A stretch of DNA of 6,679 nt from positions 1-6,679 of IMG/VR virus record IMGVR_UViG_3300029006_000021. The stretch is one strand, 5' to 3'. The position numbers and the translations under genes were made by a program. Positions 1 through 6,679 of the stretch are shown here, in pieces. Each line of letters starts with the position of its first letter. The first letter of the stretch is position 1. This stretch comes from a virus. Taxonomy: Duplodnaviria > Heunggongvirae > Uroviricota > Caudoviricetes. A model generated the notes under the pieces. That model was given only the letters and a program-made list of their open reading frames with translations. It was not told the origin of the DNA and did not search any database.

Positions 1-31
1 GGGCGATTAACATCGCCTTTTGCTGCTTCAT
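1..31 (-). CDS. hokD: Hok/Gef-family small membrane toxin, N-terminal 10 codons only; gene continues beyond the left edge of the window
   Basis: Minus-strand ATG at 29-31 preceded by SD-like AAGGAGA about 9 nt upstream; visible translation MKQQKAMLIA matches the N-terminus of HokD/RelF as I remember it (HokC/Gef would read MKQHKAMIVA). Only 10 residues are in the window, so the call is tentative. Confidence 0.45.
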   Translation of the reverse strand, partial: MKQQKAMLIA

Positions 32-152
32 AGCCTGCTTCTCCTTGCCTTTCGGCACGTAAGAGGCTAACCTACATGTGCAAAGCATGAAATTGGCCTC
101 AGATTAATGTTAAGCGTCTTGCCGGACGCGTAATGTTAACTGGGGCTTTTCT

Positions 153-188
153 CTGTCTGCCTTACGGTGGCATGCCCGAGGCAGACAG
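153..188. other. 10-bp inverted repeat (CTGTCTGCCT / AGGCAGACAG) with 16-nt spacer containing the palindrome GGCATGCC, in the leader upstream of the hok-like gene
   Basis: Read directly. Not followed by a U-tract on either strand, so not a typical terminator; could be part of hok-type mRNA folding or a protein-binding site. Confidence 0.35.
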
Positions 189-276
189 CCTCAAGCACCC
201 GCAGCAATTCTACTTAACTCTCGCTTTACCGCAAACCGTTTTTACCCGATATGGGAATCCCCATATCGCAATGAAA

Positions 277-2213: not shown

Positions 2214-2948
2214 TCACCGCTGCTGCTCTCTGGTGGCGGTAATATCCCGGAGAATATCCCTGTGTTTGTTCAGTTCCCGTAGCGCAGCACAGACTCGCTC
2301 CCACTTCTGAACATCACTTTTCGCCCGGCGCAGCTCGCGGTTAGCCACATGCAGCGATGGTAGAATCAGGTCATCTGCTTTCGCTTCAGTGACCGATGGC
2401 TGTAACTTCACAATGTCTTCCTCGATTTCTGTTTTCATTTCTTCCTGTGTCGTTGTTTCCTGGACTGGTAACGCAACTCCTGCTGGCTGAGGAAAGGCTT
2501 TACCATCCGTTTCCGCTGCGGATGCAGCTTCCGGCTCTGCTGGTAAATTATCGCCCGGCATGCAGTAACGAAATTTACCGCCCTGATTCACGCGAATCAG
2601 ACGCCCTTTGCTGATTGCCATTGCCAGCGATGAATTCGCCCGGCGGGAGGTAATTCCGAACATCAGTGCCAGTTCATCCGCCGTTTGTGGGCCATGTTGT
2701 TCAATCGCCTCTGTCAGCATTTGCGCTGTCACTTTCGGTACCGGTGACACCGGTTCACTTTCACCAGCCTGAGTCAGCCACCACATCGACCCCTTGTTAT
2801 CCGCTTCACCGCGGCGCTTCAGTTTCCACAGTTCGTTGACCGCCTCTTCACGGCTGATTCCAAGGCGCGATGCCACTACCTGTGAAGAGGCTTTTTTCAG
2901 TGCTTTCAGTGCGTCAAATACGGTTTCCATTAAAACGTCCTCCGACAA
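2214..2948 (-). CDS. Prophage protein with two tandem winged-helix-like domains and an acidic/Pro-rich linker, 244 aa (resembles the DUF1627-type proteins found after replication genes in enterobacterial prophages)
   Basis: ORF track; ATG at 2946-2948 with SD GGAGGA about 7 nt upstream, 3 nt after the stop of the DnaC-like gene. Domain assignment is from reading the sequence, not from a search. Confidence 0.8.
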
Positions 2949-2951
2949 AAA

Positions 2952-3698
2952 TTACTTCACAACCCTCTGATTGCTGACATTTGGACGCCAGCTATCCCAG
3001 TTAAACGTCACCCATCGACCACCGTTCATGGTCATGCGGTCCATAATCCTCTCACCGAGAAGCGTACTCATTGCGGCATGATTCAGGTTTGTTAACATCC
3101 CGACACTGCACAGTGATGCTGTCCGGCGATCAATTATCTGGTGCAATACCACCTGCTCGTTTTTCGTCTCACGCTGAACGCCTATTTCATCCAGGACCAG
3201 CAAATCAACCCCGCAAAGCTCCTGTAAAAATTTTTCCCCGGACTGGCCGTTGTCGTAGCTGTCATGCAACACACTCATGACGTCAGACACGGTGACGATA
3301 ATCACGCTGCTCCCCTTCGCCATCAGCCGGTTGCCCATCGCCGCTGCAAGGTGATTTTTCCCGGTGCCGGTTTTACCGCTGAACACAAAATTCGTGCACC
3401 CGGTCATCAGTTCGTCAGCGATGGATTTTGCCTGGCTCAGCGCGTGTTTTTGCCCGTCGTTCTGCACCTGATAATTCGCAAACGAGCATTTGCTGTGCAG
3501 AGGCTGGATGCCCGAACGATTCAGGATTTTTTCCACCCGCAACTGGCGATTCTGGCGGTTAATCTCCTCGCTGCGTTTTCGTCCTTCAGCAAGCTGCCAT
3601 TCCCGCCACTCCTCCACCGTCCGGTACGGTGGAACCGCCCCCTGTGGTGCAAGTCTGCGAATACGTTCAAGAACCCCGGCTGCCGCAATGTTTTTCAT
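2952..3698 (-). CDS. ydaV: DnaC-family replicative helicase loader (AAA+ ATPase), 248 aa
   Basis: Walker A FSGKTGTGKNHLAAA and Walker B DLLVLDEIGVQ, with C-terminal ...GERIMDRM...WVTFNWDSWR closely resembling E. coli DnaC; SD GGGGGTGA upstream of ATG 3696-3698. Symbol assigned by synteny and size with the Rac prophage, not verified. Confidence 0.9.
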   Translation of the reverse strand: MKNIAAAGVLERIRRLAPQGAVPPYRTVEEWREWQLAEGRKRSEEINRQNRQLRVEKILNRSGIQPLHSKCSFANYQVQNDGQKHALSQAKSIADELMTGCTNFVFSGKTGTGKNHLAAAMGNRLMAKGSSVIIVTVSDVMSVLHDSYDNGQSGEKFLQELCGVDLLVLDEIGVQRETKNEQVVLHQIIDRRTASLCSVGMLTNLNHAAMSTLLGERIMDRMTMNGGRWVTFNWDSWRPNVSNQRVVK

Positions 3699-3704
3699 GC
3701 CACG

Positions 3705-4667
3705 TCACCCCCTGAATCCAGGCGGTATTTCAGTGTCCGGTTCAGAAATGTGATTCACGCAACGCTGCGCGGGCGAACGCCCCAGGCGGATAACCAGTTC
3801 ATCCCATTTTTCCCGGAGTTTTGCCGGACTCATGATGTTTTTTACCCAGAACGAATCCCGCTGGACACGCCCAAACATTTCACAAATTTGTCTGTGAGTT
3901 CTGCCATCCAGCATCCGCATTGTGCGCACGTCATTGGCCCATGCTGTCCAGTTGGGTTCTTTCGGTCTCGTGATCTCGCCATCATCGCTGGCCGCCTGCT
4001 CGTAAAGACTCACGATTCGTCCCCAGATCCACTGTGCGCACACCAAATCTTCCTGACTTCCCCACTGGCGTTTTTTCGCACTGAACACAACCGCGTCAGG
4101 GTGTCGGGTTAAAAAATCCTGTTCAGCCGTCTGCGGGTCCGGTTGCGAAGCGTCCGGACAAGAAGATCTTTTCTCTGACGGATCAGGTTTTAATACTGAC
4201 GGATCGGGGTCAATCATCGCCCCCCTAATCGGCAGTTTTTTATCAACCGTTGATCCATCAAAATTTGACGGGTCAACCGTTGAGGGGTCAATATTTGACG
4301 GGTCAACTGTTAACGGGTCATTTTTTGCCGGGCTAATTTTTCTTTTCGGTTTATATGACTCACGCGCCGCCGCCGCAGCTGCTTCGAGTTTTTCCACATT
4401 AAGCCGATAGATATTGCTTACATTACGCCCACCGACCTTACGCTCTTCCTTCGTCAGCCAGCCCTCTTTCGCCAGTTCTGCAATAGCCGATTTCACGGTG
4501 GATTCACTTCTTGCACCGATCTGACGCCGGATAGTTTCAATGGCAGGCCATGACACGCCCTCGTCATTGCTGTAGTCTGCTAGACGGGCCATCACTGCCA
4601 CCCGGGATAAGATCATGCCGGTGAAGGCGCATCCTTCCCAGACAAGACCATGAAGCTTGCTGCTCAT
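3705..4667 (-). CDS. ydaU: Phage replication initiator (lambda O-like role): N-terminal winged-helix domain, repeat-bearing linker (DPSNIDPSTVDPSNFDGSTVD), C-terminal domain; about 320 aa
   Basis: ORF track 3705..4682; I prefer the ATG at 4665-4667 (MSSKLHGL...) with a GGGGG SD-like run upstream, over the GTG at 4682. Sits immediately upstream of the DnaC-like gene and contains the iteron array. Symbol by synteny with Rac, not verified. Confidence 0.85.
   Translation of the reverse strand: MSSKLHGLVWEGCAFTGMILSRVAVMARLADYSNDEGVSWPAIETIRRQIGARSESTVKSAIAELAKEGWLTKEERKVGGRNVSNIYRLNVEKLEAAAAAARESYKPKRKISPAKNDPLTVDPSNIDPSTVDPSNFDGSTVDKKLPIRGAMIDPDPSVLKPDPSEKRSSCPDASQPDPQTAEQDFLTRHPDAVVFSAKKRQWGSQEDLVCAQWIWGRIVSLYEQAASDDGEITRPKEPNWTAWANDVRTMRMLDGRTHRQICEMFGRVQRDSFWVKNIMSPAKLREKWDELVIRLGRSPAQRCVNHISEPDTEIPPGFRG
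4249..4323. repeat. Iteron array: four to five direct repeats of a 15-bp unit (core GGGTCAA, approximate consensus TTGACGGGTCAAC) inside the initiator coding sequence; putative phage replication origin
   Basis: GGTCAA cores at 4271, 4286, 4301 and 4316 (GGTCAT), exactly 15 bp apart, with a degenerate copy at 4249-4263; read directly from the sequence. Lambda ori iterons likewise lie within the O gene linker. Confidence 0.75.
4324..4365. other. AT-rich tract flanking the iterons (candidate DNA-unwinding element of the origin)
   Basis: Sequence TTTTTTGCCGGGCTAATTTTTCTTTTCGGTTTATATGACTC directly adjacent to the iterons; by analogy with lambda ori. Confidence 0.45.
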
Positions 4668-4689
4668 AAAACCCCCGAACACCGTGCTT

Positions 4690-5115
4690 TTAGTGCATCA
4701 CCACAGCATTCCCTGCCGGGCCGCCGCGATTCATCTGGTCATACAAAACAACCGCTGACGCAACAAAATCGTCGACATCCTTCACCAGCCGATCCCGCCG
4801 TTCGACGATCTCACGGTAATACTCAGAACTGTGGCTGCGCATACGGGCCACCAGCAAAGGCGGCATCGCCTTTTCGATCGCTGGTAACAGAGCCTGAATT
4901 TTTTCAACAGCATCAGGGGTGTCTTTATCCAACCAACGGAAAATTTTCTGGGTATTACGGGCCAGGGCTTCCGGATGACTGTCGTCATACAGTTCCGGGA
5001 ACGTCATCCCCAGTTCGAAATAAGTCCGGGCTATTTCAGCTGCAGGAACTTTCTCGCCATCAGGATATGCCCAGGCATTGATCGCCATGCGGATGTGTTC
5101 ATGCTTGATTTTCAT
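4690..5115 (-). CDS. ydaT: YdaT-like protein, 141 aa (lambda CII-like regulator; historically annotated as a toxin)
   Basis: ORF track; ATG 5113-5115 with SD GGAG about 9 nt upstream; 17-nt overlap with the upstream ydaS-like gene; position between Cro-like and O-like genes as in Rac. Symbol by synteny and size, not verified. Confidence 0.85.
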   Translation of the reverse strand: MKIKHEHIRMAINAWAYPDGEKVPAAEIARTYFELGMTFPELYDDSHPEALARNTQKIFRWLDKDTPDAVEKIQALLPAIEKAMPPLLVARMRSHSSEYYREIVERRDRLVKDVDDFVASAVVLYDQMNRGGPAGNAVVMH

Positions 5116-5380
5116 GAATCAAGCTCCTAGAAAGTGGTTGTGTTAACGTTTTGGTATCTTCCAGCTCAGGCCAAATATTCATCCAATCAAAAGGCCTTAG
5201 TTGCTGACGTGTAACTTCACCATTACTGGCTCGCTCAATAAGGACACATAACGATGCCCCTAACACTTGACCTTTACTCAATGCCTTTCTTAGATAACCG
5301 ATGCTGGTACCACACTCGCATGCAAACATACGCTGTTCATCTGACGAAAGAGAATTGAGAAATATTCTTAATTCTTCCAT
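5099..5380 (-). CDS. ydaS: YdaS-like Cro-type HTH regulator, 93 aa
   Basis: ORF track; ATG 5378-5380 with SD AAGGAG 5 nt upstream; HTH-like segment CGTSIGYLRKALSKGQ; first gene of the operon divergent from the repressor gene. Symbol by synteny, not verified. Confidence 0.85.
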   Translation of the reverse strand: MEELRIFLNSLSSDEQRMFACECGTSIGYLRKALSKGQVLGASLCVLIERASNGEVTRQQLRPFDWMNIWPELEDTKTLTQPLSRSLIHENQA

Positions 5381-5405
5381 AGCTACTCCTTAGTAAACAC
5401 AGCAA

Positions 5406-5433
5406 AGAATACCTATAGGTAAACAAAAGTCAA
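5406..5433 (-). promoter_or_regulatory. PR-like sigma70 promoter for the ydaS operon: -35 TTGACT (5428-5433), 16-bp spacer, -10 TATTCT (5406-5411), read on the minus strand
   Basis: Hexamers read directly; the -10 overlaps the perfect palindrome at 5410-5421; predicted transcript start sits about 20 nt upstream of the ydaS SD. Confidence 0.55.
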
Positions 5434-5487
5434 TACCTTTGGGTTGTTTACCTTACGGTAATCACATCTATTATTTACCTATGGACA
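5410..5487. promoter_or_regulatory. Operator cluster: four TACC-N4-GGTA-type palindromes (5410-5421 TACCTATAGGTA, perfect; 5434-5445 TACCTTTGGGTT; 5450-5461 TACCTTACGGTA; 5476-5487 TACCTATGGACA); candidate repressor binding sites
   Basis: Read directly; they sit between divergent repressor and Cro-like genes and overlap the predicted promoter hexamers, an arrangement like lambda OR1-OR3. Confidence 0.55.
5447..5474 (+). promoter_or_regulatory. PRM-like promoter for the repressor gene: -35 TTTACC (5447-5452), 16-bp spacer, -10 TATTAT (5469-5474); predicted start at or near the ATG at 5481 (leaderless mRNA)
   Basis: Hexamers read directly; there is no SD upstream of ATG 5481. Lambda cI is transcribed as a leaderless mRNA from PRM, which is the precedent. 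Confidence 0.4.
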
Positions 5488-5900
5488 AATATGAATTTAG
5501 ACGACAGCAGCTCATCAAAATTCGTGATGAGAAATGCGATGGTAAAGCGGTTAACGTAGCCAGAAAGATCGGTCGCGAGCCTTCTTATGTATCAAGAATG
5601 TTGTACCCAGAGGGGAAAAAGGGAAAAAAACGGATCGCTGATGATATGGTGGAGATTATCGAAGAGTCCTTTGGGTTACCCCGAGGATGGATGGATGGTA
5701 TCGTTTCATCATCAACGAACACAGCCTCCAATTATGAAACAAGGGTTCTAACGCCACGACAACGTATTTTTTTAGATCTCCTAGACGAGTTGCCAGAAAG
5801 TGAAGCGGATAACTTATTAAAAACTCTTGAAGAGAAAAAACAGTATTACAATATGATCTACGAAGAAATCCGTAAAAAGAAAGCACAAAACGCATCATAA
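5481..5900 (+). CDS. racR: RacR-like prophage repressor (cI analogue): N-terminal HTH, no S24 peptidase domain; 139 aa from ATG 5481 (alternative TTG at 5439 gives 153 aa)
   Basis: ORF track 5439..5900; HTH-like GKAVNVARKIGREPSYVSRML; divergent from the Cro-like gene with an operator-rich intergenic region. Start uncertain. Symbol by synteny with Rac, not verified. Confidence 0.8.
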   Translation: MDKYEFRRQQLIKIRDEKCDGKAVNVARKIGREPSYVSRMLYPEGKKGKKRIADDMVEIIEESFGLPRGWMDGIVSSSTNTASNYETRVLTPRQRIFLDLLDELPESEADNLLKTLEEKKQYYNMIYEEIRKKKAQNAS

Positions 5901-5943
5901 CTCACCAAACAACCAGTCACCAGTTAAGACACCTCAAAAAAGT

Positions 5944-5980
5944 TACCCACGGGTATTTACTTTTTAGATACCCGTGGGTA
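5944..5980. promoter_or_regulatory. Perfect 13-bp inverted repeat (TACCCACGGGTAT / ATACCCGTGGGTA) with 11-nt loop; each arm is itself a TACC-N4-GGTA operator-like motif. Candidate OL-like operator pair and/or bidirectional terminator
   Basis: Read directly; 44 nt after the racR stop. On the minus strand the stem is followed by CTTTTTT, on the plus strand by TTCTTCCTTTC. The shared motif with the racR/ydaS intergenic operators favours a repressor site. Confidence 0.5.
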
Positions 5981-6166
5981 TTCTTCCTTTCATACCAACC
6001 CACTCCGCCCCACAGAATGCAGGGCAATACCTCGAGTTACCCGGCAGTGGTCAGGGGTTAAGTAGCCAGCCCGAGGCGTATGAACATGACGGCGGGAACA
6101 CTTTGTATAACAGCGCAGCAGGTTTTTAGTTCCGCTACCCCGGCGTTAAGGGGAAATGAGGTCAAC

Positions 6167-6319: not shown

Positions 6320-6485
6320 TTAGCGCCAGTAAAAACAGGTTTCCACAGGTTAATGTACCCTGAAAAGTCATGGCATAACACGAAAGCGCACGGAGAGGTT
6401 TCTTTGCATATAAGTCTTGTCGTTAAATTTCTTCGACCGTGCGCTTCCGGTTGTGTAGCCAGTGCAACCTCGTGGTGTACCCATT

Positions 6486-6524
6486 GGCGGCATCGGTTTG
6501 TTGCTGACTGATGTCCGCCCTTTT
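6486..6524 (+). terminator. Candidate rho-independent terminator: GGCGGCATC / GATGTCCGCC stem (one bulge) followed by CTTTTTAAA
   Basis: Read directly; the loop is large (about 14 nt), so this is weak. Confidence 0.3.
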
Positions 6525-6679
6525 TAAAGTGAATTTTGTGATGCGATGAATGCGGCTATGCGCACGCGGAACAGTTAAAGCAGTAAGGCGGTATTTTACT
6601 GGCGTAACAAGCATCAACTAACCCGGCGTTAATTGTTAACTGGTTAACGTCACCTGGAGGCACCAGGCACTGCATCACA

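What the first reader, a model, noticed from the sequence alone, without database searches (positions are those of the whole stretch)
4690..5900. RacR / YdaS / YdaT-type immunity module with a leaderless repressor transcript and TACC-N4-GGTA operators
The gene order is that of the Rac prophage, where the repressor is essential in E. coli K-12 because losing it derepresses the toxic ydaS-ydaT genes (established knowledge). Here the intergenic region has four copies of a TACC-N4-GGTA palindrome overlapping predicted divergent promoters, and the repressor ATG at 5481 has no SD and lies about 7 nt after a TATTAT -10, suggesting a leaderless mRNA as for lambda cI. The repressor lacks an S24 autoprotease domain, so induction is probably not by RecA-stimulated autocleavage.
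Basis: partly seen in the sequence, partly recalled or inferred. Interest (0 to 1): 0.55.

Follow-up and report, generated by a model that had tools for sequence, protein, structure and literature searches.

The report
Lambda-like prophage immunity switch, leaderless repressor
This is an ordinary but previously undescribed version of the classic phage lambda "genetic switch" in an E. coli prophage: a repressor gene that probably starts exactly at its transcript's first base, a Cro-like and a CII-like partner, and five repressor-binding palindromes arranged as in lambda.

Summary
The perfect TACC-N4-GGTA palindrome occurs 4 times in the window against 0.05 expected. Two copies lie in the 100-bp repressor/cro spacer (5410, 5449) and two lie just after the repressor gene (5944, 5969). 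A conserved imperfect third spacer site is at 5434.

Across 33-40 related loci from gamma- and beta-proteobacteria, the same three sites sit at -72, -47 and -32 from the same MDKYE start codon. A -10-like hexamer ends 6-7 nt before that ATG, and there is no Shine-Dalgarno sequence. This supports a leaderless repressor mRNA. The sister switch of prophage CP-933P is experimentally leaderless.

The repressor is not a RacR homologue. It joins the DNA-binding domain of phage mEp043-type CI repressors, which carry an S24 domain, to a DicA/PaaR2-like helical C-terminus. Cro is 73% identical to mEp043 Cro. YdaT is 94% identical to CP-933P YdaT, and its published operator is present at 5105-5122.

Verdict: a heteroimmune member of the known lambdoid CI/Cro/CII (PaaR2/YdaS/YdaT) switch family, of moderate-to-low interest. 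How it is induced remains unknown.

The parts
4690..5115 (-). YdaT (CII-equivalent transcription activator), 141 aa
   Evidence: Pfam PF06254, 42.7 bits against a cutoff of 21. E=4e-88 to PDB 8BT1, the CP-933P YdaT. 94% identical to the CP-933P copy. 31% identical over full length to K-12 Rac YdaT. phrog_163, 'CII-like activator'.
5105..5122 (.). YdaT operator OM (TTGATTTTCATGAATCAA) at the cro/ydaT junction; marks the PRE-equivalent region that reads toward the repressor
   Evidence: Perfect match to the published YdaT site 5'-TTGATTN6AATCAA-3' (PMC9986795). It lies inside the segment that is 91% identical to CP-933P.
5099..5380 (-). Cro-equivalent (YdaS-like HTH protein), 93 aa, with Shine-Dalgarno AAGGAG at 5392-5387
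   Evidence: 73% identical to mEp043 Cro. 36% identical to CP-933P YdaS, E=5e-17. Pfam YdaS 25.8 bits, below the cutoff of 30. phrog_35. A homologue lies divergently upstream of the repressor in 33 related loci. Anti-SD pairing -8.6 kcal/mol.
5406..5433 (-). PR-equivalent promoter: -35 TTGACT (5433-5428), 16-nt spacer, -10 TATTCT (5411-5406); predicted start near 5399
   Evidence: Promoter scan. The TCAA that abuts site B and the A/T flank of site A are conserved across 33 loci.
5410..5421 (.). Operator OR1-equivalent (site A), TACCTATAGGTA, overlapping the PR -10; centre at -65.5 from the repressor ATG
   Evidence: Perfect palindrome. Present at -71 to -75 in 32 of 33 loci, with invariant TACC/GGTA and a variable Y-R-Y-R centre.
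5434..5445 (.). Operator OR2-equivalent (site B), TACCTTTGGGTT, abutting the PR -35; centre at -41.5 from the repressor ATG
   Evidence: One mismatch. The right half is imperfect in essentially all relatives. The spacing is fixed at 24-25 bp from A and 15 bp from C.
5449..5460 (.). Operator OR3-equivalent (site C), TACCTTACGGTA, overlapping the PRM -35; centre at -26.5
   Evidence: Perfect palindrome. Starts at -32 to -35 from the ATG in 33 of 33 loci. The ATTTACC flank is conserved and the centre is not.
5447..5474 (+). PRM-equivalent promoter: -35 TTTACC, 16-nt spacer, -10 TATTAT; predicted +1 is A5481 of the ATG (leaderless)
   Evidence: Promoter scan. An xAxxxT hexamer ends 6-7 nt before the ATG in 30 of 40 loci, and the mean -10 score peaks there. 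CP-933P paaR2 has GATAAT-6 nt-ATG and was shown leaderless by 5' RACE and N-terminal sequencing (PMC8630535).
5476..5487 (.).
   Evidence: Not found at up to 1 mismatch. Absent at this position in all other family loci. Seen only in close E. coli and Salmonella relatives, and degraded to TACT...GATA in Salmonella.
5481..5900 (+). Immunity repressor (CI-equivalent), 139 aa: N-terminal HTH domain (about residues 1-75), flexible linker, and a DicA/PaaR2-like helical C-terminal domain (about residues 89-138). No S24 domain.
   Evidence: phrog_5736, E=5e-70. The N-terminal domain is 70-85% identical to 221-242 aa S24 repressors, and the MDKYE start is conserved. The C-terminus is 33% identical to the DicA C-terminus, E=1e-7. 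NF007257 partial hit. PaaR2: 23% over 90 aa, E=9e-9. AF2 model pLDDT 82.7 with helices 3-18, 23-30, 34-41, 54-63, 92-103 and 106-138. Foldseek top hits are phage SPC32H Rep and XRE-type HTH proteins.
5944..5984 (+). OL/PL-equivalent: OL2 TACCCACGGGTA (5944-5955), -35 TTTACT (5956-5961), OL1 TACCCGTGGGTA (5969-5980), -10 TATTCT (5979-5984); predicted start near 5991. Bases 5944-5980 also form a 16-bp hairpin.
   Evidence: Two perfect sites. The same arrangement, site-TTGACn-site-TAnnnT with sites 25-26 bp apart, occurs downstream of the repressor operon in 29 related loci. It mirrors the PR layout. Homology to CP-933P and Rac resumes at 5992. Hairpin dG is -27.9 kcal/mol, z=-5.9. The terminator scan flags it.
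5128..5991 (.). The exchangeable immunity cassette (most of cro, OR, repressor, OL/PL), flanked by sequence about 90% identical to CP-933P
   Evidence: blastn of the window against CP-933P: 91% over 2818-5127, 90% over 5992-6156, and nothing in between.

Best explanation
The region is the immunity switch of a lambdoid E. coli prophage. It is built like lambda's and like the experimentally studied switch of prophage CP-933P, but with a different immunity specificity.

Repressor binding (inferred). The 139-aa repressor (5481-5900) binds TACC-N4-GGTA operators as a dimer or higher oligomer.
- Sites A (5410) and B (5434) cover the -10 and abut the -35 of the leftward promoter that drives cro-ydaT-O-P. 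Their occupancy shuts off lytic and replication genes.
- Site B is centred at -41.5 from the repressor's own start. Lambda CI at OR2 activates PRM from this position, so positive autoregulation is likely.
- Site C (5449) overlaps the -35 of the repressor promoter. It would give negative autoregulation and be the likely first target of Cro.
- A second operator pair (5944, 5969) covers a PL-like promoter for the DUF1391-DicF-dicB-exo-xis-int operon.

Other steps (inferred from geometry and comparison).
- The repressor mRNA starts at the A of its ATG and is translated without a leader.
- YdaT binds its operator at 5105-5122 and activates a PRE-like promoter that reads back toward the repressor during establishment.
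- The helical C-terminal domain, which resembles DicA and PaaR2, mediates oligomerisation and probably OR-OL cooperativity over about 0.5 kb.

Induction (inferred, least certain). There is no S24 domain, so RecA-stimulated self-cleavage is not available. Induction would need an antirepressor, proteolysis by a host protease, or stochastic bistable switching as reported for CP-933P.

Shown here: the sequence features, their statistical excess, and their conservation. Inferred: binding, transcription start sites, the regulatory logic and the mode of induction.
For: Motif excess. There are 4 perfect sites against 0.05 expected. No site occurs in the Rac, Qin or CP-933P immunity regions. In 46.5 kb of the 98%-identical prophage, the only perfect sites are the two OR sites.

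Co-inheritance of the DNA-binding domain, Cro and the operators.
- Across the 43 sequences scanned (the window, 41 genomic loci and mEp043), perfect sites occur at 9.8 per kb in the 150 nt upstream of the gene and 0.27 per kb elsewhere.
- In 31 of 33 loci the layout is A-(24/25 bp)-B-(15 bp)-C, with C starting 32-35 nt before the ATG.
- TACC and GGTA are invariant while the centres vary.
- Family members with a changed recognition helix (L024, L040, L044) lack the motif or carry a different palindrome.
- A Cro homologue is present in 33 loci.

Leaderless start.
- The N-terminus MDKYE is conserved.
- There is no SD: +2.8 kcal/mol in the window. The family median is -2.8 against -4.7 for cro, p=5e-6.
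- The -10 hexamer sits at a fixed 6-7 nt before the ATG.
- CP-933P has identical geometry, where leaderless expression was shown experimentally (PMC8630535).

PL/OL. The operator-promoter arrangement is conserved in 29 loci.

YdaT and OM..

Domain architecture..

Prevalence. 814 of 5426 complete E. coli genomes carry at least 80% of 4690-6100. The closest relative is a full-length lambdoid prophage of about 50 kb next to ompW.
Against: - There is no direct binding, footprint or 5'-end data for this repressor.
- Site C is a perfect palindrome over the repressor's own -35. It could make autoregulation purely negative. The proposed weaker affinity of C rests only on its non-Y-R-Y-R centre.
- The predicted promoters are only 8-9 of 12 matches to consensus. 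PL scores 8 of 12 and was not reported by the scan.
- The B-C spacing of 15 bp has no lambda counterpart.
- No antirepressor is annotated in the related prophage, so the induction route is a guess.
- The structural match to SPC32H Rep is marginal (E about 1e-3, rmsd about 16 A).
Confidence: 0.8

Rival explanations
1. It is a Rac-type RacR/YdaS/YdaT module in the strict sense. The repressor is a RacR orthologue whose essential job is to hold down a YdaS/YdaT toxin pair.
For: - Gene order and the replication genes resemble Rac (78% nucleotide identity over ydaU/ydaV).
- YdaT is a true homologue.
- RacR depletion is lethal in K-12 (PMC5700377, PMC5700373).
Against: - The repressor shows no similarity to RacR (E=2.3).
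- The Cro-like protein matches only 28 residues of K-12 YdaS and is below Pfam's threshold.
- No TACC-N4-GGTA site occurs in the Rac region.
- CP-933P YdaT, 94% identical to the window's, was not toxic and acts as a CII-like activator (PMC8630535).
Confidence: 0.07
2. The pair of palindromes at 5944-5980 is simply an intrinsic terminator hairpin for the repressor transcript, not operators.
For: - It forms a 16-bp stem, dG -27.9 kcal/mol, z=-5.9.
- The terminator scan flags it, with tail TTCTTCCTTT.
- Stem complementarity is kept by compensatory changes in two diverged relatives.
Against: - Both arms are perfect copies of the operator motif.
- The same site-promoter-site arrangement occurs in 29 loci, where the central 4 bases of the two sites are complementary at only 0-3 of 4 positions.
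- The U-tract is poor, and worse in the relatives.
- The layout copies PR. A dual role as operators plus a weak terminator remains possible.
Confidence: 0.08
3. The repressor mRNA is not leaderless. It is made from an upstream start (for example the PRE-like promoter only) and translated from a leadered message, or it uses the TTG at 5439.
For: - A YdaT-activated PRE-like transcript would carry a long leader. In lambda such a transcript also exists.
- The PRM hexamers are imperfect (9 of 12).
Against: - Homologues from many genera begin at MDKYE.
- The 14 codons after TTG 5439 are operator DNA.
- No SD exists in the window or in most relatives.
- The distance from the -35/operator C to the ATG is fixed at 32-35 nt, while the intervening sequence diverges.
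- The CP-933P precedent applies.
Confidence: 0.1
4. The palindromes are chance or compositional features of an AT-rich promoter region, with no protein partner.
For: The region is AT-rich and short palindromes are common in promoters.
Against: - 0 of 200 shuffles give 4 sites.
- Position, spacing and the TACC/GGTA arms are invariant across gamma- and beta-proteobacterial relatives, while centres and flanks drift.
Confidence: 0.01

Closest known systems
CP-933P (Sp12) immunity region of E. coli O157:H7: PaaR2 / YdaS / YdaT (Jurenas et al. 2021, PMC8630535; Prolic-Kalinsek et al. 2023, PMC9986795)
   Same: - Divergent repressor and Cro-like genes, 97-100 bp apart, with several palindromic operators over two promoters.
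- A -10 hexamer 6 nt before the repressor ATG; the CP-933P repressor was shown to be leaderless.
- A PL/OL set downstream.
- YdaT 94% identical, with the same TTGATT-N6-AATCAA operator at the cro/ydaT junction.
- Flanking DNA about 90% identical on both sides.
- A repressor without S24 and with a helical C-terminal domain (23% identity, E=9e-9).
   Different: - The 864-bp immunity cassette (5128-5991) is unrelated at the DNA level.
- The operator is TACC-N4-GGTA rather than the GTTTAGTAA-type repeats, and no TACC-N4-GGTA occurs in CP-933P.
- The repressor DNA-binding domain is of another family, and Cro is only 36% identical.
- There is no paaA2-parE2 toxin-antitoxin pair after the repressor.
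Phage mEp043 cI/cro (and a family of about 220-240 aa S24 'LexA family' prophage repressors in Enterobacterales, Aeromonas, Neisseria, Burkholderiales and Xanthomonadales)
   Same: - DNA-binding domain 76% identical, with the same MDKYE start.
- Cro 73% identical.
- The same three-site operator layout at -72/-47/-32 and the same OL pair with an embedded promoter.
   Different: - mEp043 CI carries an S24 self-cleavage domain, where the window's protein has a DicA/PaaR2-like helical domain.
- mEp043 uses a lambda-type CII (PF05269-like) instead of YdaT.
- No operator study of mEp043 was found in the searchable literature.
Lambda cI / cro / cII with OR1-3, OL and leaderless PRM transcript
   Same: - The overall logic and geometry match.
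- Two operators 24 bp apart cover PR. The distal one is centred near -42 of PRM (own knowledge of lambda), and a third lies over PRM.
- There is an OL pair at PL, a leaderless repressor mRNA, and a CII-type activator site at the cro/cII junction.
   Different: - No sequence homology of the repressor, Cro or CII.
- 12-bp core sites instead of 17-bp sites.
- The second and third sites are 15 bp apart, against 23 bp in lambda.
- No S24 domain.
- OL lies only about 0.5 kb from OR.
DicA/DicC of the Qin prophage and RacR/YdaS/YdaT of Rac (E. coli K-12)
   Same: - Gene order is the same.
- The downstream operon is of Qin type: DUF1391, a DicF-like RNA, and dicB in relatives.
- The C-terminal 46 residues resemble DicA (33% identity).
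- The replication genes and PL leader resemble Rac.
   Different: - The N-terminal DNA-binding domain is unrelated to DicA's in sequence.
- There is no similarity to RacR.
- The operator motif is absent from both K-12 regions.
Salmonella phage SPC32H Rep (PDB 5D4Z/5D50), a non-cleavable repressor inactivated by an antirepressor
   Same: It is the best Foldseek match of the predicted structure: an HTH domain plus a helical C-terminal part. It also lacks an S24 domain.
   Different: The match is marginal (E about 1e-3, 16-17% identity, large rmsd). No antirepressor gene was found in the window or annotated in the related prophage.

Membership tests
Rac-type RacR/YdaS/YdaT module | Repressor homologous to RacR | tested here: not met
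   BLASTP against K-12 RacR gives E=2.3, with no meaningful alignment.
Rac-type RacR/YdaS/YdaT module | YdaS-family (PF15943) Cro-like protein | tested here: inconclusive
   Pfam score is 25.8 bits, below the gathering score of 30. 54% identity over 28 aa to K-12 YdaS. 36% over 78 aa to CP-933P YdaS, E=5e-17.
Rac-type RacR/YdaS/YdaT module | YdaT-family (PF06254) protein downstream of the Cro-like gene | tested here: met
   42.7 bits against a cutoff of 21. 31% identity over full length to K-12 YdaT.
Rac-type RacR/YdaS/YdaT module | Loss of the repressor is lethal through ydaS/ydaT expression | not testable with these tools
   Needs repressor depletion in a lysogen.
Lambdoid CI/Cro/CII immunity switch | Divergent repressor and cro genes separated by a short spacer with multiple operators overlapping two back-to-back promoters | tested here: met
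   100-bp spacer, three sites, two promoter-like elements, conserved in 33 loci.
Lambdoid CI/Cro/CII immunity switch | Second operator set at an early leftward promoter (OL/PL) beyond the repressor gene | tested here: met
   Two perfect sites at 5944 and 5969 with an embedded -35/-10. The same arrangement occurs in 29 loci.
Lambdoid CI/Cro/CII immunity switch | Establishment activator with a binding site at the cro/cII junction | tested here: met
   YdaT plus a perfect TTGATT-N6-AATCAA site at 5105-5122.
Lambdoid CI/Cro/CII immunity switch | Repressor with an S24 (LexA-like) self-cleavage domain | tested here: not met
   No PF00717 hit, only 139 aa, and a helical C-terminus. Relatives with the same DNA-binding domain do carry PF00717.
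Lambdoid CI/Cro/CII immunity switch | Leaderless repressor mRNA from the maintenance promoter | tested here: inconclusive
   The geometry and lack of SD fit and are conserved. The transcript 5' end itself cannot be measured here.
CP-933P PaaR2/YdaS/YdaT switch | PaaR2-like repressor followed by the paaA2-parE2 toxin-antitoxin genes | tested here: not met
   Only distant similarity to PaaR2 (23% identity, E=9e-9). No TA genes lie between 5900 and the DUF1391 gene.
CP-933P PaaR2/YdaS/YdaT switch | GTTTAGTAA-type 18-bp repeats as operators | tested here: not met
   The window's spacer carries TACC-N4-GGTA instead. CP-933P has none of those (PMC8630535).
mEp043-type CI repressor family (no Pfam model; phrog_5736) | N-terminal MDKYE...SYVSRMLY...GW(M/L)D DNA-binding domain | tested here: met
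   76% identical to mEp043 CI. phrog_5736, E=5e-70. Alignments.
mEp043-type CI repressor family (no Pfam model; phrog_5736) | Three TACC-N4-GGTA sites at about -72, -47 and -32 from the start codon, with a cognate Cro | tested here: met

The most novel reading that the evidence does not exclude
Two linked readings go beyond 'another lambdoid switch'.

(1) One DNA-binding-domain/Cro/operator cassette, with an invariant leaderless geometry, has spread across gamma- and beta-proteobacterial prophages. It has exchanged only its C-terminal effector domain: S24 self-cleavage in some, a DicA/PaaR2-like oligomerisation helix pair in others. The same operator wiring would therefore run with SOS-dependent or SOS-independent induction.

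(2) In the E. coli and Salmonella short-form clade, the two OL operators have been shaped into an exact inverted repeat. Compensatory substitutions maintain it in three diverged versions. The same 37 bp would then act both as the repressor's OL1/OL2 and as the terminator hairpin that stops the constitutive repressor transcript from reading into the dicB/kil-type operon.
Probability: 0.3. Interest if true: 0.5.

Novelty: new member of a known kind. Interest (0 to 1): 0.33.

Why it matters
About 15% of complete E. coli genomes (814 of 5426) carry this immunity cassette. Even so, its repressor is annotated 'hypothetical protein', has no Pfam family, and no paper in the searchable library mentions its operator.

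The analysis supplies several concrete things:
- an operator consensus (TACC-YRYR-GGTA);
- a map of OR, OL, PR, PRM and PL;
- a predicted leaderless start;
- the exact cassette boundaries relative to the well-studied CP-933P switch.

These make immunity typing, reporter design and prophage-induction studies of these prophages straightforward. The S24-bearing and S24-less relatives share the same DNA-binding domain. They offer a natural comparison for how induction signals are wired into an otherwise identical switch. The switch does not change current understanding of phage switches.

Tried and rejected
- RacR homology: rejected.
- Pfam, NCBIfam and PDB sequence searches for the repressor. Pfam gave nothing. 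NCBIfam gave only a partial DicA hit. PDB gave only chance-level ADAR Z-alpha hits.
- LexA box (CTGT-N8-ACAG) in the window: only chance-level 1-mismatch hits, and none near the switch.
- Antirepressor gene in the 98%-identical prophage: none annotated.
- Rfam at gathering threshold in the switch region: nothing. The mir-2041 hits at 5944-5980 merely reflect the hairpin.
- Literature searches for the motif, for mEp043 operators and for the RefSeq protein accessions: nothing relevant.
- The first attempt to read the K-12 loci from the script machine failed because the files were not yet present. I used protein comparison instead.
Full report
WHAT IS IN THE WINDOW

ORF listing, Pfam and PHROG scans identify the genes from right to left on the minus strand:
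- a Cro-like HTH gene (5099-5380);
- a YdaT gene (4690-5115);
- an O-like HTH replication gene (3705-4682);
- a DnaC/IstB-like ATPase gene (2952-3698).

On the plus strand lie a 139-aa ORF (5481-5900) and a DUF1391 gene.

The segment 4690-6100 is 98% identical to chromosomal prophages in many E. coli. At least 80% of it is present in 814 of 5426 complete genomes. In the best match, PGAP annotates the 139-aa ORF with the same start as 'hypothetical protein'. It is followed there by DUF1391, dicB, DUF1482, an exonuclease, xis and int next to ompW. The rest of that element is a full-length lambdoid prophage of about 50 kb.

CHECK OF THE OBSERVATION

The perfect TACCNNNNGGTA occurs four times in the window, at 5410, 5449, 5944 and 5969. 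The expectation is 0.05, and none of 200 shuffles reached four. Only two of these sites lie in the 100-bp spacer between the divergent genes. A third spacer site at 5434 has one mismatch.

It has two mismatches and overlaps the ATG.

The promoter scan returns exactly two hits in 5000-6100, and both overlap these sites:
- TTTACC-16-TATTAT on the plus strand, ending at 5474;
- TTGACT-16-TATTCT on the minus strand, 5433 to 5406.

Six bases separate TATTAT from A5481. The 20 nt upstream of the ATG have no anti-SD complementarity (+2.8 kcal/mol). The cro gene has AAGGAG six bases before its ATG (-8.6 kcal/mol).

WHAT THE PROTEINS ARE

YdaT is a genuine family member. It scores 42.7 bits in Pfam, is 31% identical to Rac YdaT over its full length, gives E=4e-88 to PDB 8BT1, and is 94% identical to CP-933P YdaT.

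The Cro-like protein falls below Pfam's YdaS threshold. It is nevertheless 36% identical to CP-933P YdaS and 73% identical to the Cro of phage mEp043.

The repressor is not related to RacR (E=2.3). A search of 5.8 billion proteins gave two kinds of hit:
- full-length relatives of 133-150 aa in E. coli, Salmonella, Serratia and Yersinia;
- many 220-242 aa 'LexA family/S24' repressors whose first 75 or so residues are 70-85% identical to the window's.

All of them begin MDKYE. Residues 89-134 resemble the C-terminus of DicA (33% identity, E=1e-7; partial NF007257 hit). The protein also aligns weakly with PaaR2 (23% over 90 aa, E=9e-9).

An AlphaFold model (pLDDT 82.7) shows a four-helix N-terminal domain in which helices 23-30 and 34-41 form the HTH. 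A disordered linker and a C-terminal helix pair (92-103, 106-138) follow. Foldseek places it nearest to the non-cleavable SPC32H phage repressor and to XRE-type HTH proteins, at marginal E-values.

The repressor is therefore a domain hybrid. It combines an mEp043-type DNA-binding domain with a DicA/PaaR2-type helical domain in place of S24.

COMPARATIVE TEST OF THE OPERATOR ASSIGNMENT

A scan of one genome per species with the N-terminal domain returned 43 loci. They range from Enterobacterales to Aeromonas, Xanthomonadales, Neisseria, Burkholderiales, Ferrovum and others.

The upstream layout is conserved.
- In 33 of these loci plus mEp043, the sequence upstream of the MDKYE codon reads: TTTACC-N4-GGTAA, about 12 nt, TCAATACC-N4-GGtn, 3 nt, TTTACC-N4-GGTA, about 20 nt, ATG.
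- Spacing is 24/25 bp and 15 bp in 31 of 33 loci. The third site starts 32-35 nt before the ATG in all 33.
- Perfect sites occur at 9.8 per kb in the 150 nt upstream and at 0.27 per kb elsewhere.
- Most of the 'elsewhere' sites are a pair 25-26 bp apart downstream of the repressor operon.
- In 29 loci that pair has the form site-TTGACn-(7-8 nt)-site-TAnnnT, which is an operator-flanked promoter. The window's 5944-5984 has exactly this form, and it mirrors its own PR read on the minus strand.

Specificity tracks the protein.
- The TACC and GGTA arms are invariant, while centres and flanks drift.
- Sites A, B and both OL sites favour a Y-R-Y-R centre. Site C does not.
- Three family members with altered recognition helices lack the motif or have a different palindrome.
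- A homologue of the window's Cro lies divergently upstream in 33 loci.

Negative controls are clean. The Rac, Qin and CP-933P regions contain no site. In 46.5 kb of the related prophage, the only sites are the two OR sites.

LEADERLESS START

The distance from the -35/site C to the ATG is fixed, although the intervening sequence diverges. The mean -10 score peaks for hexamers ending 6-7 nt before the ATG, and 25 of 40 loci have their best hexamer there. In 30 of 40 loci the hexamer at that position fits xAxxxT. The repressor genes have weaker anti-SD pairing than the neighbouring cro genes (median -2.8 against -4.7 kcal/mol, p=5e-6).

In CP-933P the geometry is GATAAT-6 nt-ATG. For that gene, 5' RACE, N-terminal sequencing and mass spectrometry showed leaderless expression (PMC8630535). 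I therefore regard the leaderless reading as well supported, although it is still not measured for this gene.

RELATION TO CP-933P AND MOSAIC STRUCTURE

The window is 91% identical to CP-933P over 2818-5127. This stretch covers the P-like and O-like genes, ydaT and the YdaT operator. Identity is 90% again from 5992, and nothing matches in between. The 864-bp block 5128-5991 is thus a swapped immunity cassette. It holds most of cro, OR, the repressor and OL/PL. Homology resumes at the predicted PL transcript start.

The published YdaT site TTGATT-N6-AATCAA is perfect at 5105-5122, at the cro/ydaT junction as in CP-933P. CP-933P carries paaA2-parE2 after its repressor. The window does not.

MECHANISM

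Inferred from the geometry:
- Repressor at A (centre -16.5 of PR) and B (abutting the PR -35) blocks PR.
- B is centred at -41.5 from the repressor start. Lambda CI at OR2 activates PRM from this position (own knowledge).
- C overlaps the PRM -35 and would give autorepression and a Cro target.
- The OL pair blocks PL.
- The helical C-terminal domain would provide oligomerisation. PaaR2 is reported to be octameric (PMC8630535).
- Without S24, RecA-mediated cleavage is not expected.

No LexA box and no annotated antirepressor was found, so the induction route is open.

AN UNRESOLVED DETAIL

In the window the two OL sites are exact reverse complements. They fold into a 16-bp hairpin (dG -27.9 kcal/mol, z=-5.9) 44 nt after the repressor stop codon.

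Two diverged short-form relatives keep a perfect or near-perfect stem through compensatory changes: CACG/CGTG, CACA/TGTG, and CGTG/CATG with one G.U pair. In the other 28 loci listed, the centres of the two OL sites are complementary at only 0-3 of 4 positions. The Serratia relative has a separate canonical terminator ahead of OL.

The pair may double as a weak terminator of the repressor transcript. The U-tract is poor, so this stays a hypothesis.

VERDICT

This is a real and well-organised lambdoid immunity switch. It is a heteroimmune sibling of the characterised CP-933P switch and a short-form member of the mEp043-type repressor family. The RacR label and the count of four spacer sites do not hold. 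It is a new member of a known kind and of modest interest.

Noticed in passing
window 26-200 (-): Strong Rfam match to sok antitoxin RNA (RF01794, 117 bits, E=5e-27). No intact hok ORF is visible inside the window; it may run off the window start.
   Followed up: partly
window 6472-6520 (+): Full-length but sub-threshold match to DicF sRNA (RF00039, 29 bits against a gathering score of 48, E=4e-4). 6484-6679 is 79.5% identical to the Qin dicF-dicB region. A weak STnc100 hit follows at 6522-6679. This fits a Qin-like PL operon.
   Followed up: partly
window 5992-6156 (+): The predicted PL leader is conserved at 85-95% in Rac (between racR and ydaG), in CP-933P and in several induced E. coli phages, even though their immunity cassettes differ. 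Its function is unknown. It could be a nut-like or other regulatory leader.
   Followed up: no
window 5944-5980; L052 1964-2000; L050 2000-2037: The OL operator pair forms a perfect 15-16 bp hairpin. Compensatory substitutions maintain it in three diverged short-form relatives, but not in the other family loci. It may have a dual operator and terminator role.
   Followed up: partly
L020, L026, L031, L032, L034, L036, L038, L039, L041-L043 (about 2400-2420, - strand): In beta-proteobacterial and Xanthomonas relatives the cro ATG lies about 6 nt after the GGTAAAnT that ends operator A. An example is cccacgggTAAATTgcgggaATG, with no SD. In those phages cro may be leaderless too.
   Followed up: no
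L040 2444-2467; L044 about 2437-2462: Two Advenella relatives have a different recognition helix (PASISHMLY or PATISHLLL). They carry a longer palindrome (CATACCGC-N8-GCGGTATG) in place of the three TACC-N4-GGTA sites. This looks like a specificity variant of the same family.
   Followed up: no
window 5099-5160 (-): The window's Cro is 93 aa, against 76 aa for mEp043 Cro. The extra C-terminal residues are encoded across the cassette junction (5127) and overlap the YdaT operator and the ydaT start by 17 nt. The tail is therefore probably a by-product of the module swap.
   Followed up: partly
L005, L007, L008, L010, L011 (Klebsiella): A Klebsiella subgroup with the same DNA-binding domain has a different spacer layout. 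ATTACC-N4-GGTAAT sits at -73, a TTTGCTATATTTT block replaces site B, and there is no homologue of the window's Cro. The TAAAAT/TAGAAT-7 nt-ATG geometry is kept.
   Followed up: no
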